Assembly (NCBI GenBank): GCA_013204405.1
Contig: JABMNX010000033.1
Span: 1 to 33,860 of the forward strand
From: Candidatus Kaiserbacteria bacterium
Lineage (GTDB): Bacteria; Patescibacteriota; Minisyncoccia; Phycocordibacterales; JABMNX01
Length of the DNA stretch: 33,860 nucleotides
Direction of reading: 5' to 3'
A model generated the notes under the pieces. It saw only the letters and a list, made by a program, of their open reading frames with translations, was not told the DNA's origin and ran no database searches. The stretch's first letter is position 1, and the number at the start of each line of letters is the position of its first letter. A program made the position numbers and the translations under genes. Positions 2-29,961 of this stretch are shown here, one piece after another.

Positions 2-376
2 TATAGAAGTTCGTGTTACTACGAAATAAGCGCGTGGTGGAGTGCTGTGTTTAATAGAGATTATGAAAAGATAGGTGCTTTATGCGAAGAAGTTACCAAC
101 GAGGAACAACAAGAAGCGTGCTATATGGGGTTTGGTGGAGTAGCTCCTCCTTCGGCAAATTATGATGTTGATAAAACAATACACCTGTGTGAAAAAATGC
201 CAAGCTTCGATGGAGAGCTTCTGTGTCGAGCGGGGGCATCTTGGGTTTATTTTTCTATTCCAGAAAAAAGGTCACAAGCGACTCTTTTCTGTGAAGGCCT
301 CACGGAAGAGAATTCAAAGTATTGTGTACAAAAGTCAGATATTTTGGGTACTGGTGAAATTAATCTCGACATATGA
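2..376 (+). CDS. C-terminal part of a Cys-rich exported protein (5-His/Cys family paralog 1), truncated by the window start
   Basis: The frame is open back to position 2 (YRSSCYYEISAWW...). The SCY..WW..C, ACYMGFG and LCRAGA Cys spacing matches the C-termini of the downstream paralogs. Its stop overlaps the next start (ATGA, 373-376). Confidence 0.85.
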   Translation, partial: YRSSCYYEISAWWSAVFNRDYEKIGALCEEVTNEEQQEACYMGFGGVAPPSANYDVDKTIHLCEKMPSFDGELLCRAGASWVYFSIPEKRSQATLFCEGLTEENSKYCVQKSDILGTGEINLDI

Positions 377-1887
377 TACGTACAGTTCTAAAACACCCAT
401 TTTTTTATATTGTAGTTCTATTTATTATTGCTACTGGCTTAAGTACATTTGGTCACTCACTTTCTTCAGGCGGGTTTAATAAAAATCATACCCCAGAGTC
501 TTTTTCAGTTGAATTAAGGGATGGTGGTTTTTATCCATCTGAGCTTACAATTAAAGTTGGTGATAGTATTACATTTACCACAATAAGGGACAAAAACTTT
601 TGGCCAGCAAGTGACCCACATCCCACGCATGAATTCTTAGGGGGATTTGATCCTGCTAGGTCATTAGCTGCAGAAGAGGCTTGGACATATACATTTAATT
701 ATTCTGGTGTGTGGAGGTACCATGACCACCTCAATGTTTCTTTCCGGGGTAACGTAACGGTACTGGAACCATCTTCAAAGGTTTTTTTAAAAAGTACTTC
801 AAGTAAAGAAGAGTGCGATGGTCTGTGTTTTGATGAACGTATACGCGAAACTGTACGAAAAGAAGGAGTAGATGCTGCTTACGCTCTTTTCCAAGATGCG
901 TTTGTAGCAGGAACATTACCTCGAAGCTGTCATTGGACCGCTCACCAAATAGGGGAAGAAGCATACCAATTATTTAAAGATGGAAAGGAATTTCCTATAA
1001 CGGAGGCTACCTCACACTGTGGTTACGGTTTCTACCACGGGTTTTTAGAGGGGTTACTTCGTGAAAATCCAGATATTGAATATGCACTATCTTTTTGCAA
1101 GGAAGTAGAAGCACAGCTTGGTGATATGGGATTACAAAACTGTTACCATGGTATCGGACATGGGTTCACAGAAGATCCTCCGGACCCAGAGGTGTGGGGA
1201 GATTTTGAAGCGATGATTAAGCCAGGTATCAAAGTATGTGAGTTTCTTTTTGGAAAAGATTCCTTTCGCAACCTGAATTTATGTCTTACTGGTGTATTTA
1301 CTGTCCCTGCAGGATTTTCCGCCGATGGAGAATTTGGTTTATCTATTAATATTGACGACCCGTTTGCATTCTGTCGTACGCAACCGTATCGATACCACAA
1401 AGCATGTTATGGTGAGATTACCCCGAAGCTCGATGTAATACTTGATTGGGATCTTTCTGGTTTACCTAAATATCTCGATAACATAACCGACGATAAGACC
1501 AAGCGTTTAGTAGTATGGGTATTACCATCTGTGATGATGGCACGAGATATATTAAAAGATAATCATGATGACTATATAGTTGGTTGTCGTGAAAACTTTG
1601 AAGGAAGACTACAATATGTTTGCCTCGCGGGGACAGTGTTTGGTTTTTTCTCCCATGGAATACCAGGAGAAGAGTACCGTAAAGTACTTGAGTTTTGTGA
1701 ATCAGAAGCATTTCTTGGGAACGAGCGTGAGCTTTGTTATAGTGAGGCTCTGAGGCAAATGCGGGTGCAATATACACTTGAAAAAGTGATTAATATATGT
1801 GAACTTGTACCAGAGGCTTACAAGCCTCACTGTACGGAGACTTTACACACTCCACCGTATGACGACCCTTTGTTTGATAATATCTAA
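373..1887 (+). CDS. Membrane-anchored cupredoxin-like domain fused to a Cys/His-rich domain (paralog 2)
   Basis: N-terminal hydrophobic helix. Cupredoxin-like segment GFYPSELTIKVGDSITF..WPASDPHPTH..GVWRYHDHL, then CHWTAH..GFYHG..CYHGIGHG. Confidence 0.85.
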   Translation: MIRTVLKHPFFYIVVLFIIATGLSTFGHSLSSGGFNKNHTPESFSVELRDGGFYPSELTIKVGDSITFTTIRDKNFWPASDPHPTHEFLGGFDPARSLAAEEAWTYTFNYSGVWRYHDHLNVSFRGNVTVLEPSSKVFLKSTSSKEECDGLCFDERIRETVRKEGVDAAYALFQDAFVAGTLPRSCHWTAHQIGEEAYQLFKDGKEFPITEATSHCGYGFYHGFLEGLLRENPDIEYALSFCKEVEAQLGDMGLQNCYHGIGHGFTEDPPDPEVWGDFEAMIKPGIKVCEFLFGKDSFRNLNLCLTGVFTVPAGFSADGEFGLSINIDDPFAFCRTQPYRYHKACYGEITPKLDVILDWDLSGLPKYLDNITDDKTKRLVVWVLPSVMMARDILKDNHDDYIVGCRENFEGRLQYVCLAGTVFGFFSHGIPGEEYRKVLEFCESEAFLGNERELCYSEALRQMRVQYTLEKVINICELVPEAYKPHCTETLHTPPYDDPLFDNI

Positions 1888-1905
1888 GAAACCAGCACAT
1901 AACAT

Positions 1906-3408
1906 ATGGATTTTATAACAAAAAAAATAAATGTATCAAAAGCGGTTGTCGCACTTCTTTTAATAAGTATTGTAATTATTGGTTATGTACTTTATTTAAA
2001 TTCAAAAAAAGAAGGAACTCACTCTGGCGTCATTAAAGAGAATACTATTAATTTAAGTGATGAAGGCTTTTATCCACAAGAACTCACTGTATCAAAAGGC
2101 ACGACAGTCACATTTACTAATACACGCGACCATTATTTTTGGCCTGCATCAAACCTTCATCCAACACACGGTATTTACTCAGAATTTGACCCTAAAAAAC
2201 CAATTAGTCCTACAAATAGTTGGAGTTTTACTTTTATGAATGTTGGAGAGTGGGAGTTTCACGACCATCTTGCACCATATTTTACAGGGATCATAACGGT
2301 GGTGGATGGAGAAGAAACATTGGCTCAAGATAGATGTAAAGATAATAGGGGCTCTACCGAATGTTGGCAGAAACCACTTCTAAAAGCACTTGAAGAAGAC
2401 GGGCTCGAAGCCTCGCTAGATTTACTTAAGGAACTGTATAGTGATGAACCAGACTTTGATGACAACTGTCACTCAGTCACCCATAACATTGGCATTGCTG
2501 CGTACAAGAACTTTCTCAAAGACAAAGATTCTATTCTTACTCCCAAAGCTGCATATTGCGCAAGTGGATTCTATCATGGGTTTATGGAAGCGTTCTTAAG
2601 TGTCACGAGAGATGTAGAAGCAGCTCGAGAATTCTGTTTATATGTAGAGGAAAAGTTATCGGACAAATCTCCAGATGCAGGGTTTCAATGTTTCCATGGC
2701 ATAGGTCACGGGCTTATGGACTTGGCTGTCTTTACTAGTTTTGCTGACGGAGTGACTAAGGTTGATGAACACAGTTTAACAAAACCAGCCCTTGAGATGT
2801 GTGAGGTTGCTTCTGTACGTGAAGAAGAGCTCTACCGATGTACATCAGCAGTGTTTAATAGTATTGCTAACTATTATTACGAAAATGAATATGGCTTAGA
2901 GGCAGACATAAGTGATCCGCTTTGGCTTTGCAGAGAACAACCTGAAAAATATAAACAGAGCTGTTATGGTAATATGAACAGCACCCTCTCGTACGTTGCT
3001 GATAGAGATTTTTCTAGAGCCTCCTCTTTTGTAGAGAAGATGGAGGATACACAGTATGCACCAGAGACAATGCGATATCTCTCATTGACAGTTTCACTAA
3101 GTGTAAAAAATGAAGACGATGCACGTAAGGTCGTTTCTGTATGTAGGGGGTTGCGGGAATCCTTGCAAGAACCCTGCCTTTCGGGTATTGCGCACGGATT
3201 TCTTGAGCACGGCACTCCAGGTCTCGAATACCAAGATGCAATACGTTTTTGTTCATACCCCATCTTTACAGATAAAGAGAGTAGCATATGTCTCACCGCA
3301 GCTTTATCAAACCTTAGTGTGTGGTATGGGGAAGATAAGGTTAATATGATATGTAGCAATATAGAGGAAAGATATAAAAAATATTGTCGTTATACGTATG
3401 CAAATTAA
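1906..3408 (+). CDS. Membrane-anchored cupredoxin-like domain fused to a Cys/His-rich domain (paralog 3)
   Basis: Same architecture as 373-1887: GFYPQELTVSKGTTVTF..WPASNLHPTH..GEWEFHDHL, then CHSVTH..GFYHG..CFHGIGHG. Confidence 0.85.
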   Translation: MDFITKKINVSKAVVALLLISIVIIGYVLYLNSKKEGTHSGVIKENTINLSDEGFYPQELTVSKGTTVTFTNTRDHYFWPASNLHPTHGIYSEFDPKKPISPTNSWSFTFMNVGEWEFHDHLAPYFTGIITVVDGEETLAQDRCKDNRGSTECWQKPLLKALEEDGLEASLDLLKELYSDEPDFDDNCHSVTHNIGIAAYKNFLKDKDSILTPKAAYCASGFYHGFMEAFLSVTRDVEAAREFCLYVEEKLSDKSPDAGFQCFHGIGHGLMDLAVFTSFADGVTKVDEHSLTKPALEMCEVASVREEELYRCTSAVFNSIANYYYENEYGLEADISDPLWLCREQPEKYKQSCYGNMNSTLSYVADRDFSRASSFVEKMEDTQYAPETMRYLSLTVSLSVKNEDDARKVVSVCRGLRESLQEPCLSGIAHGFLEHGTPGLEYQDAIRFCSYPIFTDKESSICLTAALSNLSVWYGEDKVNMICSNIEERYKKYCRYTYAN

Positions 3409-4612
3409 GAACTTAAAATTTGGAAAGGAATCTATTTTTGTACTTCTGCTTTTACTCTTTATAGGAACTTTGTTGACTGTAGAAGAACCATTATTAGATC
3501 AAAACAAGGACCTGTTAATGGAATACAGTACTTCAATTCTTGAAATATGCGCTCAAGATGAGTACCGTCCCACATGTTACGACAGGGAGATTCCAAAACT
3601 TATGGATCAAGGTTTATCAATGGAGGAAGCATTTGATGTGACACGGTTTATTCAAGACAAGGACGAGGTGTATTTTTATTGTCACGTACTTGGTCATTAC
3701 TTAAGCGGGAAAGAAACCGCAAAAGACCCGTCAAAATGGAAGGATGTGATAATCCGTGTACCAAGTGGTGTATGTTCAAACGGAGGTATCCACGGTGCAT
3801 TTCAAGAACGTTTTCGTAGTGAATCGTTACCTGATGCAGATGTGGACGACCTAAAGCCTATTTTGGCAGATATATGTAGAAAGAGGGATGATTGGGACCC
3901 AACTCCTATGGAACAGGCAACGTGCACACATGCTATAGGGCATTTAACAATGTATGTTACAGATGCTGATATAGATAAATCAATCAAGCTATGTGACGAA
4001 GTGTCTATCAACGAAAGGGGCAGAGACTTTACACAGCTTTGCTACGACGGAGCATTTATGCAAATTTTTCAACCTCTTGACCCCGAAGACTTTGGACTTG
4101 TTGAGGACATACAGCCAACAAAAGAAGAACTCCATTCTTTCTGCTGGTCTTTTGAGGGTAGAAAACGGAGCTCATGCTGGAGCGAGGGGTGGCCCCTTGT
4201 TTCCGAGGAGATTAAAGAACCTGAAGGGGTTGTCGCGCACTGTTCACAAATGAGCAAAAATTTGCAAGAGGAAAACCGTTGTTACAGCGCTTTATTTTAT
4301 GTGCTTGGTGCTCAGTTCGGTTTTGATAAAGCGCGCGTTATAGATTTCTGTTCTCGTTTCCTAGAAGAAAGAAAGGGTCAGTGCTTTGCGAATGGAGCAT
4401 CGAGAATGATTGAGATTGATTGGAGTTATATAAATAAGGCGGTCAGTATTTGTACTGCGGCTGAAGAAAAGGGAGTAGGTGATGCTTGCTATGACGAACT
4501 TCTACTCTACTCAAGCTATAATTTCATAGTTGGTTCGGAATCTTTTCTTCAACTATGTGATGGGATGCCTGATCCATGGAGAAAGCAGTGTTTAGCACAA
4601 GATAGTCGATAG
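3398..4612 (+). CDS. Membrane-anchored Cys/His-rich protein (paralog 4, no cupredoxin)
   Basis: N-terminal TM helix; CHVLGH..GGIHG..CTHAIGH..CYDGAFMQ. Overlaps the upstream stop by 11 nt. Confidence 0.85.
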   Translation: MQIKNLKFGKESIFVLLLLLFIGTLLTVEEPLLDQNKDLLMEYSTSILEICAQDEYRPTCYDREIPKLMDQGLSMEEAFDVTRFIQDKDEVYFYCHVLGHYLSGKETAKDPSKWKDVIIRVPSGVCSNGGIHGAFQERFRSESLPDADVDDLKPILADICRKRDDWDPTPMEQATCTHAIGHLTMYVTDADIDKSIKLCDEVSINERGRDFTQLCYDGAFMQIFQPLDPEDFGLVEDIQPTKEELHSFCWSFEGRKRSSCWSEGWPLVSEEIKEPEGVVAHCSQMSKNLQEENRCYSALFYVLGAQFGFDKARVIDFCSRFLEERKGQCFANGASRMIEIDWSYINKAVSICTAAEEKGVGDACYDELLLYSSYNFIVGSESFLQLCDGMPDPWRKQCLAQDSR

Positions 4613-4643
4613 AGATATTTAAACACGTAAGATCGCTAATAAT

Positions 4644-5699
4644 GTGAATGGAATATTTAAGAGTATAGCTATAGGTATCTCCATAATATTTATTATTGTA
4701 GGATATTATGTTGTATCTACAATAGGAACAAATGAGTACAATATTCCGAGATTTGTTAAATATAAACTACAGTCTTGCAACGAGTTGGTTAGTTTAGAAA
4801 AAGATAAGTGTGTTCAAGATATCGCAGATAGAATATTGTATAAAGACGGTATCCTTTCTGCTTTTGAGTTTCTTAAAACTGCGTTTCAATACGAAAAATT
4901 TACAGCGCGTGGGTGTTTTTGGGATACAGGAGTTTTAGCTCAGTATAAAGAAGAGCTACTCAAAGAGACTACGGTAGGGGAAGTTGGATTTGAAAAAGTA
5001 TTACCAAGGGCTGTATACAACTGTTATTTTTTAATAGGAAAAATAGTAGCTGCGGAACCTCTTCTGGGGTCTAGTCCTCAAGGTATTGAAAAAATACTAG
5101 AGAATACGTTACCTCTTTGCGCTCTTATTTCGAAAGAAATACGAGAACAAAATGAGTGTGAAGAAGGTGTGTATAGTTTAGCAATAGAGCATATGGGTGA
5201 AAATAATATTCAGGACGATTTATTCTCTCTCTGTAGAAGTCAGCCTGATCAATACAAGCCTCAATGTTTTTACGAATTTGCAAGAACTGCTGATATTAAG
5301 AAGGGAGATTTTTTTAGAATGCACAGCGTTATTATGCAGGCACCTACAGAGTCTCTCAGAGAATCAGTAACAAAAGCTATAGTATCAACAGGTACGAGAG
5401 GAGAAGTAAGGAGCGATAATTTTGAAAAAACTGTGAATGGATGTCGTAGTTTTCAGACTCAAGGAGTCAGAGAGGCTTGTGTAAGAGCTCTTGTTGTGGG
5501 AGTCTGGGAAGCAAGTGATATTGGGGAGGAATACCAACAAGGGGACATATTCTGCTCAAATAATTTTTTGACGCAGGTGGAGAAGCAGAGCTGTTATAAG
5601 ACTCTTTTTGGTGAGCTTTCAGTTATTTACAGTATCCCTAAAATGCAGAAAGTGTGCAATAAATTTTCACAGGAATATCAGCACATATGCGTTCTATAA
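4644..5699 (+). CDS. Divergent Cys-rich paralog 5 that lacks the conserved histidines
   Basis: N-terminal TM helix. The Cys scaffold is retained (LCRSQPDQYKPQCF, GEEYQQGDIFCS, CY..L..C..C as in paralogs 2 and 3), but CYFLIGK replaces CxHGxGH. GTG start. Confidence 0.8.
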   Translation: MNGIFKSIAIGISIIFIIVGYYVVSTIGTNEYNIPRFVKYKLQSCNELVSLEKDKCVQDIADRILYKDGILSAFEFLKTAFQYEKFTARGCFWDTGVLAQYKEELLKETTVGEVGFEKVLPRAVYNCYFLIGKIVAAEPLLGSSPQGIEKILENTLPLCALISKEIREQNECEEGVYSLAIEHMGENNIQDDLFSLCRSQPDQYKPQCFYEFARTADIKKGDFFRMHSVIMQAPTESLRESVTKAIVSTGTRGEVRSDNFEKTVNGCRSFQTQGVREACVRALVVGVWEASDIGEEYQQGDIFCSNNFLTQVEKQSCYKTLFGELSVIYSIPKMQKVCNKFSQEYQHICVL

Positions 5700-6748
5700 A
5701 AAGATATATGATAAATTTAAAAAACAAAGAAGGTATAGTACTGTTACTTGTCAGTATAATAATTATATTTTTTTTATTTATTGTAAACTCTCCTCAAGAT
5801 TTTAAACTAGACACTAGCATTAGTGATTATTCAAAACTAGAGTCTACTTTTGAAAAACGAATGGAAGATGTTGGTGGTAAAAAACTTTTTGAAGAAATAA
5901 TTTTCTTTGCAGAACTTCTTGATCCAAGTATCAAACATCTTTACGGACACATATTTGGTAAAGTGCTTTATGAAAAGGAAGGACTCGGTTCTTTTTTAAT
6001 ATGTGACTCACGCCTACAACAAGGGTGTATCCATGAATTTATTGGTAATGCTATAGTTGATTTAGGTATTGAATCAGTGACTATCTTAAATGACACATGT
6101 TTAGGGTTACAGGGAAGACAAGAGGTTCAAGCTTGTCAGCATGGAATAGGGCATGGGCTTGTGTCTCACTTTGGATATTCAGAATCCGATCTTTTGCGCG
6201 CATTGAGTGTGTGTAGAACACTCCCCACTCATGATAGTGGCCAAATGTTCGGTTGTTACGGAGGGGTTTTTATGGAACATAATGTTAAGACAATGCTTGC
6301 TGAGGAAACAGACATCCGTCACTCAGAAGATCTTTTTGAGCCATGCCGCTCTTTAGATGATGTTTACAAATCAGCGTGTTCATTTTGGCAACCGCAGTGG
6401 TGGAGACAAGAACATTTGAGTCACTTAGACCCATTGAGTGCCTATGCCCGTATGGGTTCTTACTGCTCTGATCTCAGCAAGGAACCACATCTCATTAATG
6501 TATGCTTTTTAGGTATGGGTAATCTTTTACCTATAGATGCTAACTTAGACTCAGCGCTTGCGGTTCGTATGTGCGACGCGGGTTCAGATGTCTTTGATTA
6601 TAGAATGAGTTGTAGGAAACGTGCTGGAAGAGATTTTAGTGAAGAAAGGCATACTTCAAAACTAGAGTTAGTTTGTGCAGAAATGAGTGATACAGACTAC
6701 AGACGTTGCGTTTCTTGGCTTGAGGGCAGTGTTAATGATGCGAATTAA
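5687..6748 (+). CDS. Membrane-anchored Cys/His-rich protein (paralog 6, subfamily B)
   Basis: TM helix; HLYGHIFG..CD..GCIHE..CQHGIGHG..GCYGGVFME..WQPQWW. The start may be the second Met (5708). Confidence 0.85.
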   Translation: MRSIKRYMINLKNKEGIVLLLVSIIIIFFLFIVNSPQDFKLDTSISDYSKLESTFEKRMEDVGGKKLFEEIIFFAELLDPSIKHLYGHIFGKVLYEKEGLGSFLICDSRLQQGCIHEFIGNAIVDLGIESVTILNDTCLGLQGRQEVQACQHGIGHGLVSHFGYSESDLLRALSVCRTLPTHDSGQMFGCYGGVFMEHNVKTMLAEETDIRHSEDLFEPCRSLDDVYKSACSFWQPQWWRQEHLSHLDPLSAYARMGSYCSDLSKEPHLINVCFLGMGNLLPIDANLDSALAVRMCDAGSDVFDYRMSCRKRAGRDFSEERHTSKLELVCAEMSDTDYRRCVSWLEGSVNDAN

Positions 6749-6753
6749 AAAAT

Positions 6754-7803: not shown

Positions 7804-7804
7804 T

Positions 7805-8842: not shown

Positions 8843-8861
8843 CCGACTGTTTCTGTGTGTT

Positions 8862-9083: not shown

Positions 9084-9089
9084 AAACAT

Positions 9090-9098
9090 ATTGTAGCA
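9090..9098 (-). promoter_or_regulatory. Extended -10 element (TGCTACAAT) for peptide A; leaderless spacing
   Basis: TGn-TAnnnT match 6 nt upstream of ATG 9083. Confidence 0.55.
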
Positions 9099-9131
9099 TA
9101 TAAAATATTAAAATAGTAAATTATCCACATA

Positions 9132-21893: not shown

Positions 21894-21900
21894 GGATGGT

Positions 21901-23529: not shown

Positions 23530-23543
23530 GTAATAGAGATATT

Positions 23544-25133
23544 TTAGAAATACGGCTGGATGGTACCTTCTATAACAGGTTCACTGTTCCTTGTTTGTTG
23601 AGTTTTTTCCCACCAAATATCAAGCTTATTTTTTAACTCTTTAGCAACCTCTTCTTCTTTGTTATACACATTACGTAGCTCATTTGGGTCTTCCTTAAGA
23701 TTGTAGAGCTCATACAAATCTCTAATCGTATCGCGCTGTGTGATAAGATTCCACCAACCATATTGTGCTTCCTGTAGTCTTGCCTTTCTCCAGATAAGCT
23801 TCCATTCTTTCGTTCGAATCGCTACATCAAATATTGCATCTTTCTTATCAAGCTCATCAAAAGATGTCAGAGAGTCTTGTATTTTTTGATATACACTTTC
23901 TTCATTCTGAATAAATCCATTACTCGTTTGAATTGCATGTTCCCACAGTGGCACACGTACTGAAAAAGTTTCATTGCGGATACTAGAAGTAGATTTTTCA
24001 ATAAGTGGACGTAGGCTTATTCCTTCAGCTTGATTTAAAGGGGGTTCTTGTATGTAGTCAAGAATTGTAGGAAGAACATCGAAGGAATTAACCAATGAGT
24101 CTATCCGTTGCGGTTTTTCTCCTGGGATATAAATAATGAGTGGTGTGTGTATAGTGGCGTCATATATGTCGTAATGGGCATAGTAACCATGCTCTCCCAT
24201 TTCCTCACCGTGTTCTGAATGAAGTATTACAATAGTATTTTCTGCAATAACACTTCTTTTGAATGCTTTAAAAAACTTACCCAAAAATTCATCTGTGGCA
24301 CGTATATTGCTGAGATACCCCTCTTTTATATATCTACTGTCTTCATCGGTTAGTGGAGTTATTGTTGTACCAAGTTCATCAAGGGACCATATATTTCCTT
24401 CATATATAGTCCTTAAATGATCCCACCAATCTAGTTTATTTTCATCTTTTAGTGGGCCATTGTATTCTTGTTGATATGAAAATGGATAACGTCCATATGG
24501 CCAGTGAGCTGTGCCGAGAGTTAACCAGAGAAAGAATTTATCATCTGGGGGATTTTTAATCCAAGAAAGGGGATTGTTCGATAGAGCCCTACCAGACCTA
24601 AAATAAGTACGAGACTCGATTGGTGGCACCTGGAATTCTTTATAATATTCGTCAAAGCCCCTGCTAAAGCTTTCACGAAGTGCATATGAAAAGTCAAAAA
24701 ATTCGGGAGAGGAACCCATTGCCACAGTGTAATATCCACTTGACTGTAATACTTGCGCCAGAGTAATAAACTTATTATTTAAGACAGAATCAAATCGGAC
24801 TACACCACTGTTTAGGGGCGAGAGTGATGTGTGCAGGGACATTTCAGTTATTGGAGTTAAATACGATGGAGTGATGTAGTCTTCAAACACAATTGATTTC
24901 TCAGCCCAGCTATCTATTGAAGGAGTGGGGCTTTCTATTATGTTTTCATTGTACGTGCCAACATAATTCGAACCTAAGCTGTCAATAGAGATAAGAATTA
25001 TATTGCATTTTTTTTCACACGGGAGTTTGTTAATTGTCGCAAGAAAGTGTAAAGAAAAAAAACACGCGAGTAGAAAACTAAGCACGCATAGTTTATAGAT
25101 AACTTTTACTGATTGAGGATTTCTACTTATCAT
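23544..25133 (-). CDS. Membrane-anchored sulfatase-like hydrolase/transferase
   Basis: NIILISIDSL, TPSID, LTPITEMSLHTSL, HWPY, SEHGE, ELYNLKEDPNE. ATG 25133 overlaps the upstream stop; the track start 25250 lies inside the neighbouring gene. Confidence 0.9.
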   Translation of the reverse strand: MISRNPQSVKVIYKLCVLSFLLACFFSLHFLATINKLPCEKKCNIILISIDSLGSNYVGTYNENIIESPTPSIDSWAEKSIVFEDYITPSYLTPITEMSLHTSLSPLNSGVVRFDSVLNNKFITLAQVLQSSGYYTVAMGSSPEFFDFSYALRESFSRGFDEYYKEFQVPPIESRTYFRSGRALSNNPLSWIKNPPDDKFFLWLTLGTAHWPYGRYPFSYQQEYNGPLKDENKLDWWDHLRTIYEGNIWSLDELGTTITPLTDEDSRYIKEGYLSNIRATDEFLGKFFKAFKRSVIAENTIVILHSEHGEEMGEHGYYAHYDIYDATIHTPLIIYIPGEKPQRIDSLVNSFDVLPTILDYIQEPPLNQAEGISLRPLIEKSTSSIRNETFSVRVPLWEHAIQTSNGFIQNEESVYQKIQDSLTSFDELDKKDAIFDVAIRTKEWKLIWRKARLQEAQYGWWNLITQRDTIRDLYELYNLKEDPNELRNVYNKEEEVAKELKNKLDIWWEKTQQTRNSEPVIEGTIQPYF

Positions 25134-26415
25134 CTCGAAATATCTTTTTCTTTTTACCAGTAGAGGCTTTAGTATGAACCAGTGGCACAATTTCAAGAGA
25201 CATATATATATTTTCTTCGACTCCATCTGCATAAACACGGTCTGGAGCAATACGTAGAGATTTTGATAGAGCCTCTTTTAAAGTGCTTGTGCTTTTATCT
25301 GGAGAAATAAGAGAAAGATGTATTGATATCTGTGGTTTAAACACACCGTCTTCATCTACAATTTCTTTGTAATGGACCTCAAAGTCTCCACTATTTAGAT
25401 AATCACTATGTAGTGAAATAACTCGATCAACCTCTGATAAGTTAAGTTCTCCTTTTCTAAAACGTAGACGGTCTATATCTAACCTACCGTCAATTGAGAG
25501 GACTGGTGTTGTTATTCCACATTCACATTCATGACGGATTATTTGTGCTAAATCTCCTGTTCGATATCGTATAAGTGGGAAAGCAACAGGGCGGATTGTT
25601 GTTATTACTAGCTCTCCACCGACTCCATTTTCTTTAATAATTTCTTCAGATATTGGGTTAATAATTTCTGTATACACATATTCAGGGACAGGGTGTACGT
25701 ATTGTTTGTGTTCATTAATTGCAATACTGCATGGGACTGCCACAGATGTTTGTGACTCAATACTCGCGTACTCGGAAACTATTTTTGCGTTTGGGAATAA
25801 CCTTTGGAATTCATTCCACTGGAATTGAGAACACCATTCACCAAATACTTGTATTGCTTTTACTTTCTTTCGGACGTTTGTCGGTAGATTTTCTGACAAA
25901 GCTCCAAGAGCATACACGGGCCCTGCAAGCATGTCTGGCATGTAAAGCGTAATGAGGTGTGCCGCTAATGGAATATCACCAGGGTCAACGTTTATTGAAT
26001 CGATTCCTGCTAGTCTTCGAAACGATGGACTATAATAAAATTGAGCACCGCTAAATGTAGCAAGGCGGTGTACATTAAGAGAAACAAACAACCTATAGTT
26101 TAAAGGCAGTTTATTTCCTTCATGGGACATTGTGCGTGGTACTGGGAGAATACCTGCTCCTGATGTTCCAGAAGTGGGTCGGATTATCTCTACATCTTTT
26201 TCGTCAACATATAAGCGTTCGTGCATCGGAAATTTTTGTATCTCCCCACGTGATAAAAATGGTATGTCCTCCCACGCAGTTTCGTCTCCTTCAAGAAATG
26301 ATTGCACAGATGTTTCTCCGAAGTATTTTTCTCGGTAGAAGTTGCTCTTGGAGCTTTTTGTTACTTCTTTTAGCACTGTAGCTAGTGCCGAGTATGGAAA
26401 ATTCAAATTATTCAT
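25123..26415 (-). CDS. PaaK-like adenylate-forming ligase, intact paralog of 17637-18923
   Basis: TSGTSG, FGEWCS, SEYASIESQ, PLIRYRTGD, CECG, IDGR, TGK. ATG 26415 is coupled to the upstream stop. Confidence 0.88.
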   Translation of the reverse strand: MNNLNFPYSALATVLKEVTKSSKSNFYREKYFGETSVQSFLEGDETAWEDIPFLSRGEIQKFPMHERLYVDEKDVEIIRPTSGTSGAGILPVPRTMSHEGNKLPLNYRLFVSLNVHRLATFSGAQFYYSPSFRRLAGIDSINVDPGDIPLAAHLITLYMPDMLAGPVYALGALSENLPTNVRKKVKAIQVFGEWCSQFQWNEFQRLFPNAKIVSEYASIESQTSVAVPCSIAINEHKQYVHPVPEYVYTEIINPISEEIIKENGVGGELVITTIRPVAFPLIRYRTGDLAQIIRHECECGITTPVLSIDGRLDIDRLRFRKGELNLSEVDRVISLHSDYLNSGDFEVHYKEIVDEDGVFKPQISIHLSLISPDKSTSTLKEALSKSLRIAPDRVYADGVEENIYMSLEIVPLVHTKASTGKKKKIFRDDK

Positions 26416-27268
26416 GTCCAATTGTTATATGTCCATCTTGGTCTACAGAGGTATTTGTAGAGATAGCAAAACGAATAAGCGGTATTGTATGGCACTTAAG
26501 ACTAGTTATGTAGCAACAGTCGTTAATAACTTCAAAGAAATATTCTGGAGAAGGTAGAAAACTTAAAGAATCCTGTTTTGATGAAGGGTTTGTGTACCCG
26601 ATTGGTATTCCTGGGAAAAGATGGTACTCAATAGATGTGTCGCCACTGAGTTGTGGTATAGTCACTTTTTTATTAAGTGGAGCAACGATGTGCCACAACC
26701 GCACTTGTTCCTGTAAACCTTCAGATTTTAAGATATTAAATACATCTTCTGCGACATCTGATGTCGCAACAACCATTTGCGCTTCCGTTTCTTTGATTAA
26801 TTGCGTAATCAGTGGTGGGTTGCGTGGGGAAAGTACTGATACTGGTACATTCTTTTTCCTACATGTTTTGTAGAACATTGGACCAAGTTGCCATGAGAGC
26901 GGTACGGTCATTATAGCAACTCGTGGTGTGTACGCTGCAACTTCATCGGCAACTGTGTCCCATTCCGCATCTATGTTTTGAGCGTATAAAAATAAGTCCT
27001 TCCAATTATCTAAATCAAATTCAGATACAAGATATCGAATATCTTTTTCTGGGTAGTGAATTAACTTTTCTTTATGCTTAATTAATTCAGTAGCAGACAC
27101 CGTTGGTATTTTTTGTAACTCCTCAAGAAACGTTTCTTGAGAGCCCGAAACTATCGGTAAGTCCGCGTACAGGTCGCTTAAAGTGTTCTCTCGGGCGAAA
27201 TCTAAAACCGTGTGGATATCGTGTATGATTTCTTTACTGATAGGTGTGTGCCAATCTTTTGTGCTCAT
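26408..27268 (-). CDS. Short, degenerate PaaK-like protein, paralog of 16796-17647
   Basis: HYPEKDIRYLVSEFD, WQLGP, SPRN, EYHLFPGIPIG, PSPEYFFE, PLIRF; no P-loop. Confidence 0.7.
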   Translation of the reverse strand: MSTKDWHTPISKEIIHDIHTVLDFARENTLSDLYADLPIVSGSQETFLEELQKIPTVSATELIKHKEKLIHYPEKDIRYLVSEFDLDNWKDLFLYAQNIDAEWDTVADEVAAYTPRVAIMTVPLSWQLGPMFYKTCRKKNVPVSVLSPRNPPLITQLIKETEAQMVVATSDVAEDVFNILKSEGLQEQVRLWHIVAPLNKKVTIPQLSGDTSIEYHLFPGIPIGYTNPSSKQDSLSFLPSPEYFFEVINDCCYITSLKCHTIPLIRFAISTNTSVDQDGHITIGHE

Positions 27269-27269
27269 A

Positions 27270-28574
27270 TTATTTGTTTAGGTGGTGAAATAAACGCACT
27301 TTTTTCTCTGCTTTGGTTGGTGTAGGTTCGGTTAGTATGTCAATTATCATTGGGAGAAAGAAGTTTCTTTTTACTCCGTCAGCATACGTGACATGGCTGT
27401 TTATGTAAATGTGCTCGGATAAACACTTGGCTATAGTGCTTAAACGTACGTTCTTAGAGACTGGCCTGACACGTATCTTTAAATAAGGACGGGCTATACT
27501 GTCTGGATTTTCATCCGCATTTCCTTCAAAATAATGGGCTTCAAAGTCATTTTCTATATATGTACTACATGCAGCGACCCCTTCTTCTATCCAGAGAATC
27601 GAAAATTCTCCACTCATAAAACGTATTCTGTCAGCAACAGTTCTCCCAACCATCTCAAAGAGAGGACCACGTCCACATGGACAGTGGTCTTTTTCAATAA
27701 GAAACAAATCTCCAGTACGATATCTAATGAGAGGGAATGGTTGTTCTGTGGTGCGCGATGATACTACTAGCTCAGCTGGTTCATGTGGATCTTTTTGTTT
27801 TCCTGTATCAGGGTCTATAAATTCACTAAGGAACTTTTTGTCATCAATATGGAACGATATTAGATTATGTTCTTTAGCGTATGAACATGAGATTCCAAAG
27901 ATTCCAGCAACTTCAGATGAAGAATAGTTCTGGAAGATAAGAGGATTTTTATATAATGCCTTAATGCTATCTCGTTGAGCACGGGAACACCTGTCCCCGT
28001 ACATCTCCACTGTCTTTATTTCTTCAAGGTATCCTTCATTCCTTAAATACGGTGCGAGTTGGATTACGAGGTGAGGGAATGCCGAAATACTTTCAGCCTT
28101 AAATAAAAAAATCATACGTGCTGCATACTTAAAATCATCAACCGTTTCTGGATAGGACATATTCATGAGTATCGCACCCGCGTTTCTTCTGCTTAATTCT
28201 GACATGTACCACGCACTCATAAAAGATACTTGTCTTTTGATTCCAGCCTTACTTGGTGCGTCCCCATAATTTCCTGCAGTACGACGTGGAGCAATAATTG
28301 GTTTCTTAGAAGATGTTGAGCTTGTGGAACGGATAGCTTCTACTTCGGTTTGTGGAATAAATGTTCTATTCCACACAGACACAGCTGTCATTTCCTCTCT
28401 GTTTAGAAAGGGTAGAGTACGCCAACTCAATATGCTGTCGGGAAATGTATTGTTGGTAGTGCTTTGTGCTAAGTGGTTACGATAAAAATCTGAGTACTCA
28501 CTCTGTAAAACATGTTTTAAGACATTTTGTAGCTCGTCGAGGACAGGTTCGGTGTCAGTTGGTATAGTCAACAT
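27270..28574 (-). CDS. PaaK-like adenylate-forming ligase with a divergent P-loop
   Basis: SDFYR, LPFL, TSSTSSK (the Gly positions are Ser), YSSSE, PLIRYRTGD, CPCG, VGR. Confidence 0.85.
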   Translation of the reverse strand: MLTIPTDTEPVLDELQNVLKHVLQSEYSDFYRNHLAQSTTNNTFPDSILSWRTLPFLNREEMTAVSVWNRTFIPQTEVEAIRSTSSTSSKKPIIAPRRTAGNYGDAPSKAGIKRQVSFMSAWYMSELSRRNAGAILMNMSYPETVDDFKYAARMIFLFKAESISAFPHLVIQLAPYLRNEGYLEEIKTVEMYGDRCSRAQRDSIKALYKNPLIFQNYSSSEVAGIFGISCSYAKEHNLISFHIDDKKFLSEFIDPDTGKQKDPHEPAELVVSSRTTEQPFPLIRYRTGDLFLIEKDHCPCGRGPLFEMVGRTVADRIRFMSGEFSILWIEEGVAACSTYIENDFEAHYFEGNADENPDSIARPYLKIRVRPVSKNVRLSTIAKCLSEHIYINSHVTYADGVKRNFFLPMIIDILTEPTPTKAEKKVRLFHHLNK

Positions 28575-28677
28575 AAAGATGTGGCACTTTAAGGAAAGTG
28601 ATAATACAATGTATTATAGCTTCTATTCACTTAAATTTTAAGTGTAGATATTATAAAGAGATTTTTGACTATTGACG

Positions 28678-29961
28678 ATGGATATAATAAAAAACAAATC
28701 AAGAATAGCTGTGTGGTATAGAGATTTCTTTCACATAAACGAGGTAGAAAAATCTGAAACACTTAAGATTGTGGCATGGGCGCTCTTGTTGGGGTGGTTT
28801 CTCGAATTTTCTACGTGGTTTAAATTTTCAGATTTTACTATTAATGCTGTCGAGGAGGGTAGACAGCTGTGTTGGCCATTCTTTCAAAGTTGTGGAGATT
28901 GGTACTTTTTGACACTAGAACCTATTGGGAACACTCACGTGCTTATGTACGGTATTTTGTTTGGACTTCTTATTACCACCGCATACACATTAATACGTGG
29001 TATGTACACCAGGGCACACGTTCTCTTTTTATGTCTCTTCTTGTGGGAAATGACAGTACTACTTATGTCTATGCGACTAGCCGTGAACTATTGGTATTTT
29101 CACGTGTTTTATGTAGCACTATTCCTTTTTCCAGTAGGAAAATTAATGTTCTTACGACTAGGTGCGGTGTTTTTATATTTTTTTTCTGGGATTCTAAAAC
29201 TTGATGATGGTTGGTTAACTGGAAGTTATTTTAAGGCACTTTCTGAAGGCCTTTACTTTATACCTGATACATTAATCCCAGTTGCCACAAATGCTGTTAT
29301 TTTTATCGAGATAGTGCTTGTTTGGTTCTTGTTGAGCAGTAAAAGAGGATTCCGTATGCCGGTGCTTGTTATATTGTTCATCTTCCATGTGTACTCTGTA
29401 TTGTTCGTTGGGTATACATACCCGACCATTGCGTTATCAATGGTGCTTGTACTCTTCCTGTCCAACGAAGGTTATGTGTCCTTAATGCAAACATTCAAGA
29501 AGAGTGTTACCGGAATAGGTATATTCACTTTCTTTATAATTGTACACTTTATCCCATACACAATTCCTGGAGATTCGCGCATAACAGGGGAAGGGAATAA
29601 GTTTGGGATGTATATGTTTGATGCAAATTACCAATGTAATTCAAAAGCAATTTTTCATCAAAAAGATGGACAGGTTACCGAGAGAGAATCCAAGTCTTTT
29701 TTCGCAATACAACGTTGTGACCCATACTCTCACCTCTTCTATCTTAAAAATCTCTGCAGTATAGATAGTGATATTGAAAGAGTGGAATGGGCGTTTGATA
29801 TTTCAGTTAATGGTAGTCCACTACAACGAATTGTTGATGAGGAAAATGCTTGTAATCTCTCATACAGGACACTTTCTCATAATGAGTGGATTAAAATTCC
29901 TGGAGTAGACGAAGTGTCAGTAATTGGACCAGTAAGTAAAAATAGCTATCGTCCTATCTAG
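28678..29961 (+). CDS. HTTM-domain / vitamin K-dependent gamma-carboxylase-like membrane protein
   Basis: Multiple TM helices. LYFFSGILKLDDGWLTG resembles the VKGC YF.AG..K..W..G motif; FH and GEGNKFGMYMF are also present. Cys-containing soluble C-terminus. Confidence 0.75.
   Translation: MDIIKNKSRIAVWYRDFFHINEVEKSETLKIVAWALLLGWFLEFSTWFKFSDFTINAVEEGRQLCWPFFQSCGDWYFLTLEPIGNTHVLMYGILFGLLITTAYTLIRGMYTRAHVLFLCLFLWEMTVLLMSMRLAVNYWYFHVFYVALFLFPVGKLMFLRLGAVFLYFFSGILKLDDGWLTGSYFKALSEGLYFIPDTLIPVATNAVIFIEIVLVWFLLSSKRGFRMPVLVILFIFHVYSVLFVGYTYPTIALSMVLVLFLSNEGYVSLMQTFKKSVTGIGIFTFFIIVHFIPYTIPGDSRITGEGNKFGMYMFDANYQCNSKAIFHQKDGQVTERESKSFFAIQRCDPYSHLFYLKNLCSIDSDIERVEWAFDISVNGSPLQRIVDEENACNLSYRTLSHNEWIKIPGVDEVSVIGPVSKNSYRPI

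What the first reader, a model, noticed from the sequence alone, without database searches (positions are those of the whole stretch)
2..29961. Candidate undescribed biosynthetic/peptide-modification system: FVGCGGF peptides, 5-His/Cys proteins, PaaK-like ligases and family X
Seen in the sequence: four families, each multiply duplicated and interleaved over 30 kb (9 Cys/His proteins, 8 ANL-fold ligases, 3 family X proteins, 2 motif-sharing peptides). A transporter, two sulfatase-fold enzymes and an HTTM protein accompany them, with no housekeeping genes. Established: ANL enzymes activate carboxylates as acyl-adenylates, and HTTM proteins (SdpB, CypH, GGCX) act on peptides. Inference: a RiPP-like or surface-tailoring pathway in which cytoplasmic ligases build acyl units and exported metalloproteins modify membrane-tethered peptides. 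I know of no described pathway with this composition, and it would be a large investment for a reduced CPR-like genome.
Basis: partly seen in the sequence, partly recalled or inferred. Interest (0 to 1): 0.92.

Follow-up and report, generated by a model that had tools for sequence, protein, structure and literature searches.

The report
Conserved peptide–ligase–exported protein module
This 30-kb island of a tiny-genome (CPR-type) bacterium holds an amplified copy of an undescribed gene module, also found in many related lineages, that pairs a small exported peptide ending in a fixed Cys motif with a dedicated ATP-using ligase and an exported protein of unknown fold.

Summary
The window carries 9 Cys/His family A genes, 8 PaaK-like ligase genes, 3 family X genes and 2 peptides ending FVGCGGF. 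Of the ligase genes, 3 are short N-domain-only forms and 2 long ones are broken.

The linkage is conserved. A peptide–X–ligase triad recurs in 3 of 6 same-genus genomes and in a second family of the phylum. A DNA scan for the peptide's C-terminus alone gave 44 hits. Of the 18 peptide-like hits, 15 had the ligase or X within 8 kb, against 1 of 26 other hits. Peptide-linked ligases cluster apart from other PaaK-like ligases of the phylum.

Family A is a wider Parcubacterial family and a frequent but optional neighbour: 5 of 18 loci, plus this genus.

X and A match no Pfam or NCBIfam model and no solved fold. No paper describing the module was found.

Best reading, chemistry untested: a RiPP-like module in which the cytoplasmic ligase makes an acyl-adenylate that the invariant Cys captures as a thioester, most simply a thiolactone with the peptide's own C-terminus. 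Loading of an imported acid is the main rival.

The parts
8862..9089 (-). Precursor peptide 1 (75 aa). N-terminal hydrophobic anchor or signal, second Cys 25 residues from the end, C-terminus YFVGCGGFF.
   Evidence: It lies 43 nt downstream of X1 on the same strand. The same architecture is seen in 24 peptides from other loci.
16464..16718 (-). Precursor peptide 2 (84 aa from the first start; probably 72 aa from the Met at 16682). C-terminus LFVGCGGFLE. The only one of 24 peptides without a second Cys.
   Evidence: It is convergent with X3 and divergent from short ligase 16730.
9132..10718 (-). Family X copy 1 (528 aa). N-terminal signal or anchor, then a helical bundle plus an alpha/beta domain. 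Carries the near-invariant C251 and the NxYxC316PD motif.
   Evidence: AF2 model: pLDDT 78, pTM 0.82. No Pfam, NCBIfam or PDB match.
20313..21893 (-). Family X copy 2 (526 aa, 48% identical to copy 1). No peptide gene found beside it.
15090..16415 (+). Family X copy 3 (441 aa). Lacks the N-terminal hydrophobic segment, a central block and both conserved Cys. Starts 3 nt after the membrane protein gene.
14086..15087 (+). Polytopic membrane protein (333 aa), no family. Not found in related loci.
11980..12804 (+). Short ligase-like protein (274 aa). N-terminal PaaK-like domain only; ends just after the CxC motif.
   Evidence: Orthologues pair with a long ligase in G004, G005 and G006.
12822..13944 (+). 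Long PaaK-like ligase, split by a frameshift near 13549-13574 into ORFs 12822-13574 and 13549-13944.
   Evidence: Run contigs are identical there.
16730..17647 (+). Short ligase-like protein (305 aa), without a recognisable P-loop.
   Evidence: same family in L048, L051, L053, L066.
17637..18923 (+). Long PaaK-like ligase, a pseudogene. 4 in-frame stops between 18546 and 18672.
18949..20274 (+). Intact long PaaK-like ligase (441 aa).
   Evidence: NCBIfam PaaK-type models at E 1e-23, all below cut-off. PDB PaaK 2y27 at E 7e-12. Sits in an all-peptide-linked clade with support 99/99.
25123..26421 (-). Intact long PaaK-like ligase (432 aa).
26408..27268 (-). Short ligase-like protein (286 aa), 41% identical to 16730-17647.
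27270..28574 (-). Intact long PaaK-like ligase (434 aa) with a degenerate P-loop (STSSTSS). Nearest relative is the ligase of locus L040.
2..8842 (+). Array of eight family A genes: 2-376 (partial), 373-1887 and 1906-3408 (with an N-terminal cupredoxin-like domain), 3398-4612, 4644-5699 (His-poor), 5687-6748, 6754-7803, 7805-8842. All are N-terminally anchored, disulfide-rich helical repeat proteins.
   Evidence: In the 45-sequence alignment, 14 Cys, 5 His, E192, R206 and W233 are invariant. AF2 model: pLDDT 92.5, all-helical. No PDB match above noise.
10790..11962 (+). Ninth family A gene (390 aa), between X1 and the first ligase pair.
22084..23529 (+). Sulfatase-fold (alkaline-phosphatase superfamily) protein, N-terminally anchored. 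Accessory.
   Evidence: Pfam PF00884 at E 1e-36. Sulfatase-fold neighbours also in L046 and L050.
23544..25250 (-). Second sulfatase-fold protein. Accessory.
   Evidence: Pfam PF00884 at E 3e-40.
28672..29961 (+). HTTM/MauE-like polytopic membrane protein, divergent from ligase 27270-28574. Accessory.
   Evidence: No Pfam or PDB sequence hit. Atlas structure TM 0.75 to an HTTM cluster; feature score 0.95 to MauE/DoxX clusters. The same ligase-plus-HTTM-like adjacency occurs in G008.

Best explanation
The core is a three-gene peptide-modification module found in several Patescibacterial (CPR) lineages. This window holds an amplified and partly decayed version of it, next to an array of exported Cys/His helical-repeat proteins (family A).

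Shown:
- A 66-95 aa precursor has a basic, hydrophobic N-terminal export or anchor segment and a polar tail, usually with a second Cys.
- Its extreme C-terminus has the form aromatic-x-x-C-x-x-F-(F/Y/L/I), sometimes followed by one E or K.
- This peptide gene travels with a dedicated clade of PaaK-type adenylate-forming ligases and with family X, an N-terminally anchored ~550-aa protein of unknown fold.

Inferred mechanism:
1. A precursor this short is finished in the cytoplasm before export.
2. There the ligase spends ATP to form an acyl-adenylate, and the invariant Cys thiol captures it as a thioester.
3. The simplest version: the acyl group is the peptide's own C-terminal carboxylate, an aromatic residue that resembles phenylacetate. 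This gives a 5-residue (or 6-residue) thiolactone of the ring size seen in staphylococcal autoinducing peptides.
4. After Sec export, X receives or processes the peptide outside the cell. X carries a near-invariant Cys in an NxYxCPD motif.
5. Family A, with 5 invariant His and cupredoxin-fused or cupredoxin-adjacent forms, is an optional extracytoplasmic redox or metal partner.

My odds: functional linkage of peptide, ligase and X about 0.85. The peptide as the ligase's direct substrate or acceptor about 0.55. The C-terminal thiolactone specifically about 0.3.
For: Linkage:
- X was found in 4 of 41 relatives, all in the window's genus. In G004, G005 and G006 it sits with family A genes, a short-plus-long ligase pair and a peptide ending FFVSCAGFLE, LFINCVGFIE, LFVSCGGFLE or FFVSCSGFLK.
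- In a phylum sample of 401 genomes, strong X hits fall in 6 genomes. These are G000 and 5 of the 10 sampled genomes of family f56. The same 6 have the ligase at E<1e-100.
- All five f56 loci show ligase, X and peptide side by side, with C-termini GCGNFY, GCNGFF and GCNNFF. G190 was not used to build any profile.

Motif-anchored test:
- A genome-contig scan for F-[VIM]-G-C-x-G-F-F-stop gave 44 loci.
- 18 hits are 66-103 aa ORFs with a real stop and an N-terminal hydrophobic segment. All lie in records titled as Patescibacteria-type MAGs, apart from one titled Acidimicrobiales and two titled 'uncultured bacterium'.
- Of these 18, 14 have the ligase, 10 have X, 5 have family A and 15 have the ligase or X within 8 kb or less.
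- Of the other 26 hits, 1 has a ligase-like hit, 0 have X and 0 have family A. Fisher p = 5e-8, but related genomes are not independent.
- Two of the 18 repeat f56 loci already seen.

Dedicated ligase clade: the peptide-linked label needs 2 changes on the tree, against 10.2 for shuffled labels (0 of 500 shuffles as low). 9 of 12 other PaaK-like ligases of the phylum form a separate 100/99 clade without a peptide or X.

Modules duplicate as units: L053 and L066 each have two peptides and two X genes. The LFVGCGGFF peptide lies by a long ligase and the FFV[ST]CGGIY peptide by a short one.

Ligase competence: the long forms keep the SGT(S/T) loop, the RYRTGD hinge, the CxCG motif and mostly the C-terminal Lys.

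Against an ordinary phenylacetate-CoA role: no PaaA/C and no enoyl-CoA hydratase in the genome. CoaE was found in 0 of 5 carrier genomes, one of them a single contig.

Peptide architecture: the Cys and the Phe three residues after it are invariant in alignment A4. 24 of 24 peptides have a basic N-terminus plus a hydrophobic segment, and 23 of 24 have a second Cys.

[quoted passage not shown] I read passages of 10.1101/2024.05.13.593846 and the abstract of PMC12150305.
Against: - No biochemical or expression evidence exists.
- PaaK-family enzymes known to me act on small aryl acids with CoA, not on peptides (recalled).
- No leader-binding (RRE-like) domain was seen in the ligases.
- Type-2 peptides carry an extra E or K after the 5-residue unit, so ring size or processing must differ there.
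- Most peptides have a second Cys, which fits an ordinary disulfide in a secreted peptide as well as a thioester.
- Solute-binding proteins for organic anions sit in 13 of 25 loci: TctC, DctP, and NMT1 with ABC parts. This suggests an imported small acid could be the ligase substrate.
- X has no recognisable catalytic fold. 3 of 18 motif loci show neither ligase nor X within the fetched 8 kb. X was seen in only 10 of the 18.
- The phylum-sample co-occurrence is largely circular, because the profiles were built from 5 of the 6 positive genomes.
Confidence: 0.4

Rival explanations
1. The ligase activates an imported small organic acid (aryl or aliphatic), not the peptide's C-terminus. It loads this acid onto the peptide's invariant Cys as an S-acyl thioester, or onto another acceptor. 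The peptide would then be an acyl carrier or a lipo/acyl-peptide that X handles outside the cell.
For: - Carboxylate or organic-anion binding proteins recur next to the module. TctC is in L047 and L051, with the same cluster in L053 and L064. DctP occurs twice in L066. NMT1-type SBP with ABC parts is in G256, L035, L060, L068, L075, L077 and L084.
- The best NCBIfam matches of the ligases are aryl-acid ligases: PaaK, FlxY and the DVU_1553 family.
- CoaE was not found in 0 of 5 carriers, so a non-CoA thiol acceptor such as the peptide Cys is attractive.
Against: - It does not explain why the motif always sits at the extreme C-terminus with an aromatic last residue.
- The SBPs belong to three unrelated transporter types. 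They are mostly orphans without membrane partners in the fetched loci.
- No SBP is present in the window or its genus.
Confidence: 0.25
2. This is a cell-surface or envelope island, not a peptide-modification pathway. The ligases tailor a glycan or lipid, as CapK-like PaaK homologues in capsule loci are thought to. The small peptide, X and family A would be secreted or anchored surface proteins that merely share regulation or location.
For: - The island has two sulfatase-fold (alkaline-phosphatase superfamily) enzymes, an HTTM-like membrane protein and a polytopic TPR protein next door.
- Giant fn3/Calx-beta surface proteins flank the module in L045, L077 and L084.
- A TMEM260-like O-mannosyltransferase flanks it in L037.
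- Other PaaK-like ligases of the phylum sit in peptide-free contexts.
Against: - The peptide-linked ligases form clades separate from those other ligases.
- The accessory envelope genes are not conserved with the module: sulfatase in 3 of 24 loci.
- Peptide and X numbers rise together in duplicated loci.
Confidence: 0.15
3. This is a secreted peptide toxin or bacteriocin (or a pheromone) with X as its immunity protein or receptor. The ligase provides a tailoring or self-protection step. The paralogue expansion and decay in the window would reflect an arms race.
For: - The module is accessory. It is present in 4 of 7 genomes of the genus, and all three families are missing together from G001, G002 and G003.
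- Peptide and X are duplicated 1:1.
- The paralogues diverge fast (25-50% identity within a genus) and include pseudogenes.
Against: - No exporter or peptidase typical of bacteriocin loci was seen.
- Nothing distinguishes this reading from a signalling or adhesion role.
- It is compatible with the best explanation rather than opposed to it.
Confidence: 0.1

Closest known systems
AgrD/AgrB autoinducing-peptide (AIP) system of staphylococci
   Same: A small precursor is targeted to the membrane by its N-terminus. The core has the form Cys-x-x-hydrophobic-hydrophobic, the unit that in AIPs forms a 5-residue thiolactone. In type-2 peptides an acidic residue follows it, as in AgrD. The AIP and AgrD sequences and ring size are recalled, not tested.
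   Different: No AgrB in 0 of 5 carrier genomes. The motif sits at the extreme C-terminus, so there is no long tail whose cleavage could drive ring closure. An ATP-dependent ligase is the linked enzyme instead. No kinase or regulator was seen in the loci.
ThiF-like adenylyltransferase (TLAT) RiPPs: microcin C (MccB), enterofaecin (EnfB), the streptococcal Glu-to-Cys thiolactone
   Same: The core lies at the very C-terminus of a ribosomal precursor. ATP-dependent adenylation of the C-terminal carboxylate is followed by intramolecular capture, with thiolactone among the known outcomes (passages; abstract).
   Different: The linked enzyme is an ANL/PaaK-type ligase, not an E1-like ThiF fold. No ORF of the window that was scanned hit ThiF. 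Only 1 of 5 carrier genomes had a partial ThiF hit, and that was on another contig. The precursors carry Sec-type N-termini, and the partner protein X is unknown elsewhere.
Phenylacetate-CoA ligase PaaK and relatives (FlxY, BagE/FevW, F390 synthetase)
   Same: Sequence similarity to PDB 2y27 at E 7e-12 and to the NCBIfam models PaaK, FlxY and DVU_1553. The conserved SGT loop, RYRTGD and CxCG motifs are present.
   Different: All scores are far below the curated cut-offs, for example 84-90 bits against 300-700. No paa catabolic genes and no CoaE were found. The ligases form their own clades tied to a peptide gene. N-domain-only short paralogues exist.
HTTM / vitamin-K-dependent carboxylase / MauE-DoxX membrane proteins (for 28672-29961 only)
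   Same: The Atlas model aligns at TM 0.75/0.71 over 370 residues with a cluster that is 100% PF05090 plus VKGC_lumenal. Feature hits to MauE/DoxX clusters reach 0.95.
   Different: No Pfam hit at E 10 and no PDB sequence hit. It is not part of the conserved core. It was seen next to a ligase only here and in G008.

Membership tests
ANL superfamily, PaaK-type ligase (long ligase genes) | Significant sequence similarity to PaaK models and structures | tested here: met
   PDB PaaK 2y27 at E 7e-12. NCBIfam PaaK, DVU_1553 and FlxY at E 1e-11 to 1e-25.
ANL superfamily, PaaK-type ligase (long ligase genes) | Core motifs: phosphate loop (S/T)SG(T/S), hinge RYRTGD, C-terminal catalytic Lys | tested here: met
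   Alignment A6. G80/T81 are nearly invariant, and Y274/D278 and C287xC289G are invariant. A Lys-rich C-terminal motif is present in most rows. 27270-28574 has a degenerate loop. The motif names are recalled.
Phenylacetate-CoA ligase PaaK (equivalog) | Score above the curated cut-off of TIGR02155 / NF041878 | tested here: not met
   42-63 bits against cut-offs of 646-700.
Phenylacetate-CoA ligase PaaK (equivalog) | Phenylacetate catabolic context (PaaABCDE, enoyl-CoA hydratase) and CoA supply | tested here: not met
   PF05138 and PF00378 have no match in the 93%-complete genome. CoaE found in 0 of 5 carriers.
RiPP biosynthetic gene cluster | Short precursor gene with a conserved core, next to a modifying enzyme, conserved across lineages | tested here: met
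RiPP biosynthetic gene cluster | A post-translational modification of the peptide has been demonstrated | not testable with these tools
Agr-type AIP system | AgrB membrane peptidase (PF04647) | tested here: not met
   0 of 5 carrier genomes.
ThiF-like adenylyltransferase RiPPs | ThiF/E1-like adenylyltransferase next to the precursor | tested here: not met
   None of the window ORFs scanned hit ThiF. PF00899 matched in 1 of 5 carriers, a partial hit on an unrelated contig.
Bacterial lipoprotein pathway (the lipobox-like L-F-V-G-C) | Lgt diacylglyceryl transferase present; lipobox directly after the signal h-region | tested here: not met
   PF01790 in 0 of 5 carriers. The motif lies 35-60 residues after the hydrophobic segment.
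HTTM (PF05090), for 28672-29961 | Match to the Pfam HTTM model | tested here: not met
   No family at E up to 10. Structural likeness comes only through the Atlas, which I treat as a lead.
Sulfatase (PF00884), for 22084-23529 and 23544-25250 | Match above the Pfam gathering score | tested here: met
   127 and 139 bits against a cut-off of 25.
Formylglycine-type sulfatase | (C/S)-x-P-x-R formylglycine motif at the nucleophile position | tested here: inconclusive
   Read by eye...SWTVPSF... and ...YLTPITE..., with Thr and no Arg. The motif and its register are recalled and were not aligned to a reference.
Cupredoxin (PF13473), N-domains of 373-1887 and 1906-3408 | Match above the gathering score (27 bits) | tested here: inconclusive
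   27.5 bits for 1906-3408 and 18 bits for 373-1887. No Cys in the region, so a type-1 copper site is not evident.

The most novel reading that the evidence does not exclude
CPR bacteria use a cytoplasmic ANL ligase to charge a ribosomal peptide's invariant Cys with a thioester and then export it through Sec. The energy-rich bond is spent outside the cell, where there is no ATP. Family X, through its conserved Cys, would pass the acyl group on to a target on the cell's own surface or on the host's. This would be an ATP-prepaid extracellular ligation or attachment system. It would also be the first RiPP class defined by a PaaK-type enzyme.
Probability: 0.12. Interest if true: 0.95.

Novelty: new variant of a known kind. 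Interest (0 to 1): 0.8.

Why it matters
CPR/Patescibacteria have tiny genomes and are mostly thought to live attached to hosts. Very little is known about how they signal, attach or compete.

This window spends about 5% of a 0.6-Mb genome on the island. Its three-gene core is conserved across several candidate phyla-level groups, and two of the three proteins (X and family A) match no known family or fold.

If the ligase acts on the peptide, this would be a new enzymatic route to C-terminally activated or cyclised ribosomal peptides: an ANL enzyme instead of a ThiF-like or AgrB-like one. It would also be a first concrete handle on peptide-based communication or attachment in CPR bacteria. The prediction can be tested directly with two genes in E. 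coli and a mass spectrometer.

Tried and rejected
I therefore have no deep census of X.
- The search for related loci with alignment A1 failed because no stretch was conserved enough.
No ligase-peptide or X-peptide docking was done.

Searches that led nowhere:
- The search for homologous proteins with X profiles returned only 4 proteins, 2 of them the window's own. The candidate list was saturated. It missed the X genes that the genome search had found, so this is not a measure of rarity.
- The Atlas gave no usable hit for X.
- Fold searches gave nothing above noise. Family A: Foldseek had no hit at E<1e-3, and the best VIA Z was 7.0 to designed helical repeats. X: Foldseek had no hit, and the best VIA Z was 6.9. 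This shows neither that the folds are new nor that they are known.
- No RNA holder was listed for 8600-18500, so nothing can be said on expression.

Ideas rejected:
- Lipobox/Lgt processing of L-F-V-G-C: Lgt in 0 of 5 carriers, and the motif lies far from the h-region.
- Agr system: AgrB in 0 of 5.
- ThiF-type RiPP.
- Phenylacetate catabolism.
- Stop-codon recoding for 17637-18923: the stops are mixed TAA and TGA.
- A double-glycine leader cleavage site at C-G-G: many peptides have CNG, CNN or CAG instead.

Literature. Five searches found no description of this module:
- PaaK + RiPP + precursor peptide: 0 papers.
- Patescibacteria + quorum sensing + autoinducing peptide: 1 paper, unrelated by its title.
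- Thiolactone / RiPP / adenylat / C-terminal carboxylate: only ThiF-like systems.
- Patescibacteria + F390 synthetase: 0 papers.
- CPR + RiPP + BGC: 22 papers, 12 listed, none on this by title or abstract.
Supplements were closed and were not consulted.

Slips that I corrected:
- Alignment A3 used wrong end coordinates and was replaced by A4.
- One search used an out-of-range coordinate, fixed.
- One search was one base too long, fixed.

Rows dropped or treated unevenly:
- In one search only ORFs of 80 aa or more were scored. A 44-aa ligase fragment at the edge of L045, seen, is therefore not counted.
- In one search partial ligases (L037, L064) were kept, while L045, L046 and L066 fragments and all short ligases were left out.

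Full report
WHAT IS IN THE WINDOW

The window is contig C30 of a 595-kb, 53-contig genome that is 93% complete.

Family A has 9 genes. They are N-terminally anchored and Cys/His-rich. Two of them (373-1887 and 1906-3408) carry an N-terminal cupredoxin-like domain, scoring 18 and 27.5 bits against Pfam PF13473 with a cut-off of 27.

The ligase family has 8 genes.
- Long forms of 432-441 aa hit PaaK-type NCBIfam models at E 1e-11 to 1e-25, always far below the curated cut-offs. They also hit the solved PaaK 2y27 at E 7e-12.
- Three genes are short (274-305 aa). They cover only the N-terminal domain and end just after the CxC motif.
- Two long genes are broken. 12822-13944 has a frameshift. 17637-18923 has four in-frame stops, 3 TAA and 1 TGA.
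- Contigs from three runs of one study are identical there. That study may be the source of this DNA, so this is not independent support.

Family X has 3 genes. Two are 48% identical exported proteins of about 527 aa. The third lacks the N-terminal hydrophobic segment, a central block and both conserved Cys.

Two small ORFs end in YFVGCGGFF and LFVGCGGFLE.

The accessory genes are as follows.
- Two sulfatase-fold proteins are solid.
- The 'HTTM' call rests only on the Atlas. Its model of this protein aligns at TM 0.75/0.71 with an HTTM/VKGC cluster, and its features resemble MauE/DoxX clusters at 0.95. Pfam and the PDB sequences see nothing.
- The 'transporter' is an unassigned polytopic membrane protein.

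Ligases and X occur nowhere else in the genome.

IS THE LINKAGE CONSERVED?

Within 41 relatives, X was found only in the window's genus: G000 and 3 of 6 others. The ligase was found in the same genomes plus G008. Family A was found in 8 of 41. G001, G002 and G003 of the same genus lack all three families, so the island is accessory.

In G004, G005 and G006 the region holds 4-7 family A genes, X, a short-plus-long ligase pair, and a small ORF with an N-terminal hydrophobic segment. These ORFs end in SFFVSCAGFLE, LFINCVGFIE, LFVSCGGFLE or SFFVSCSGFLK.

A profile of X searched over 401 genomes of the phylum hit only G000 and family f56. In all five f56 genomes that carry it, a 423-441 aa ligase, X and a 73-81 aa peptide lie side by side. 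The peptide ends are CLYSGCGNFY, CLFIGCNGFF, ALFVGCNGFF, CLWVGCNNFF and CMYVGCNGFF. No family A gene lies nearby.

I then started from the peptide alone. A scan of 185,579 species genomes for DNA encoding F-[VIM]-G-C-x-G-F-F followed by TRR gave 44 loci.
- 18 hits are 66-103 aa ORFs with a true stop and an N-terminal hydrophobic segment.
- By record title they come from Daviesbacteria, Moranbacteria, Nomurabacteria, Wolfebacteria, Parcubacteria, 'Saccharibacteria' and Patescibacteria MAGs. One is labelled Acidimicrobiales and two 'uncultured bacterium'.
- Two of the 18 repeat f56 loci already seen.
- Within the fetched 8 kb or less, 14 of 18 have the ligase, 10 of 18 have X, 5 of 18 have family A, and 15 of 18 have the ligase or X.
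- The 26 remaining hits are short ORFs, ORFs with no hydrophobic segment, or cases where TGG stands in place of the stop. They serve as an internal control: 1 of 26 has a ligase-like hit, 0 of 26 have X and 0 of 26 have family A.
- Fisher p = 5e-8, with the caveat that related genomes are not independent.

On a maximum-likelihood tree of 34 ligases, the 22 peptide-linked ones need only 2 label changes. Shuffled labels need 10.2 on average, and 0 of 500 shuffles were as low. Nine of 12 other PaaK-like ligases of the phylum form a separate clade with support 100/99, and their loci have no peptide and no X. The window's three intact long ligases sit in a 10-member, all-peptide-linked clade with support 99/99.

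The refutation condition is therefore not met for peptide, ligase and X. For family A the answer is mixed. It is a large Parcubacteria/Kaiserbacteria-type family with 126 hits, all 'hypothetical' and without Pfam domains. It also occurs without X. Even so, it neighbours the module in this genus and in 5 of 18 other loci.

ANATOMY OF THE PARTS

Peptides.
- All 24 have a basic N-terminus followed by a 17-residue hydrophobic stretch with mean Kyte-Doolittle score of at least 1.5.
- The tail is usually acidic, and 23 of 24 tails have a second Cys 10-37 residues from the end.
- The motif is at the extreme C-terminus. The Cys and the Phe three residues after it are invariant in the 10-sequence alignment. 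Two peptides found later have Ile there (GGIY).
- Type 1 ends in C-x-x-F-(F/Y). Type 2 (FFVSC...) ends in C-x-G-F-(L/I)-(E/K) or C-G-G-I-Y and goes with short ligases.
- In L053 and L066 the two types sit in one locus, each with its own X.

Ligases. They keep the SGT(S/T) loop, the RYRTGD hinge, CxCG and mostly a C-terminal Lys. None has a signal sequence, so they should be cytoplasmic.

Family X.
- The AF2 model from 13 sequences has pLDDT 78.3 and pTM 0.82. It shows an N-terminal helix, long helical bundles and a small alpha/beta domain.
- No structural match rises above noise.
- Across 22 sequences, only P39 is invariant. L58, P83, L87, Y123, C251, Y314, C316 and R451 are nearly so. C316 lies in an NxYxCPD motif.

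Family A.
- The AF2 model from 45 sequences has pLDDT 92.5. It is an all-helical repeat after an N-terminal anchor helix.
- 14 Cys are invariant, presumably forming seven disulfides. H80, H84, H112, H147, H151, E192, R206 and W233 are also invariant.
- No fold match exceeds the level usual for helical repeats.
- The cupredoxin-like domain is fused in two paralogues. A small separate ORF beside family A in L047 has a weak Cupredoxin_1 hit (E 0.0012). The equivalent ORF in L040 matched only by blastp. This fused-versus-split pattern hints at a redox or metal function.

HOW IT MOST LIKELY WORKS

Shown: the three core genes are inherited and duplicated together.

Inferred:
- A precursor of under 100 residues leaves the ribosome before it can be exported (established knowledge of small secretory proteins). 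Its C-terminus is therefore exposed to a cytoplasmic, ATP-using ligase.
- An adenylate-forming enzyme needs a carboxylate and a nucleophile. The peptide offers an always-free C-terminal carboxylate on an aromatic residue, which resembles phenylacetate, the family's namesake substrate. It also offers an invariant thiol four or five residues upstream.
- Adenylation followed by thiol capture would give a thiolactone of AIP-like ring size.
- ATP-driven C-terminal adenylation with macrocyclisation, including a Glu-to-Cys thiolactone, is documented for ThiF-like enzymes (passages read; abstract seen). The chemistry has precedent, but this enzyme family does not.
- The usual PaaK role is unlikely here. 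No PaaA/C, no enoyl-CoA hydratase and no CoaE were found.
- X would act on the exported peptide. Its conserved Cys could exchange with a thioester, but this is speculation.

The main rival is that the ligase loads an imported small acid onto the Cys. Carboxylate-type solute-binding proteins (TctC, DctP, NMT1 with ABC parts) lie in 13 of 25 loci, though in none from this genus.

COMPARISON WITH KNOWN SYSTEMS

- It works most like a RiPP cluster of the 'C-terminal activation' kind (TLAT RiPPs), and its motif resembles Agr AIPs. It is a member of neither: AgrB in 0 of 5 carriers, and ThiF not linked.
- It is not a lipoprotein-pathway product. Lgt was found in 0 of 5 carriers, and the motif lies far from the signal segment.
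- The ligases are members of the PaaK-like branch of the ANL superfamily, but of no curated equivalog.

NOVELTY AND LIMITS

No curated family covers the peptide, X or family A. Five literature searches found no description.

There is no expression evidence and no docking result. The phylum-sample co-occurrence is partly circular. The motif-anchored test and G190 are the independent evidence.

I rate this a real, conserved and undescribed module: a new variant of a known kind (ribosomal peptide plus ATP-dependent modifying enzyme). Interest is 0.8.

Noticed in passing
window 2-376 and genome contig C4:245-2535: The partial family A gene at the left edge is 96% identical over 124 aa to the end of a family A gene on contig C4. 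C4 carries a second family A gene upstream. The island probably continues onto C4, or C4 is a strain variant of it. A further family A copy lies at C29:9998-11077, and cupredoxin-only ORFs lie on C8 and C48.
   Followed up: partly
window 27270-29961; L031:5722-8475 (G008): A 27270-type ligase and the HTTM/MauE-like membrane protein are neighbours in the window. They are also neighbours in G008, a different genus without X, where the HTTM-like protein is 38.6% identical. This may be a second, separate conserved pair. MauE-type and HTTM-type proteins are tied to disulfide or quinone chemistry (recalled), which would suit the 14-Cys family A.
   Followed up: partly
window 22084-25250: Read by eye, both sulfatase-fold proteins have Thr where formylglycine sulfatases have Cys or Ser, and they lack the Arg (…WTVPSF…, …LTPITE…). 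This looks more like the LtaS/EptA type of phosphotransferase than a sulfatase. The motif is recalled and was not aligned to a reference.
   Followed up: no
window 29983-33277: Just outside the finding lie two paralogous small secreted proteins (255 and 155 aa) and a 653-aa polytopic protein with C-terminal TPR. They are conserved next to the island in G004, G005 and G006. In L037 the peptide's neighbour is an 891-aa TMEM260-like O-mannosyltransferase with TPR.
   Followed up: partly
L047:4585-5547, L051:1802-2818, L066:2671-4823, L028:14194-16740, L084:9642-10646: Solute-binding proteins of three unrelated transporter types sit next to the module in 13 of 25 loci: TctC, DctP, and NMT1 with ABC ATPase and permease. 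The TctC and DctP genes have no membrane partner in the fetched DNA. This is unexplained. They could supply an acid substrate or bind the peptide's carboxylate.
   Followed up: partly
L045:610-6717, L077:1-6351, L084:2-6358: Giant surface proteins of 2,036-2,119 aa flank the peptide gene in three loci. The L077 protein has fn3, Calx-beta and purple-acid-phosphatase N-domains.
   Followed up: no
L008:3258-5167 (G004) and equivalents in G005, G006, L052: A secreted protein of 172-188 aa that begins ...FGHG... after its signal, followed by an Ig-like surface protein (Bact_surface_Ig-like, E 1e-36). This pair lies inside the cassette of the relatives but not in the window.
   Followed up: no
window 20313-21893: X copy 2 has no peptide gene beside it. 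No ORF ending in a C-x-x-hydrophobic-hydrophobic motif was found in its flanks. The window therefore has 3 X genes but only 2 peptides.
   Followed up: yes
L042, L054 (two Bizionia genomes) and other Bacteroidota hits: Several Flavobacteriia records match the DNA pattern as FIGC(K/N/S)GFF. In these the 'stop' is TGG or the ORF is only 8-50 aa, and no ligase or X is nearby. They look like chance or unrelated matches.
   Followed up: yes
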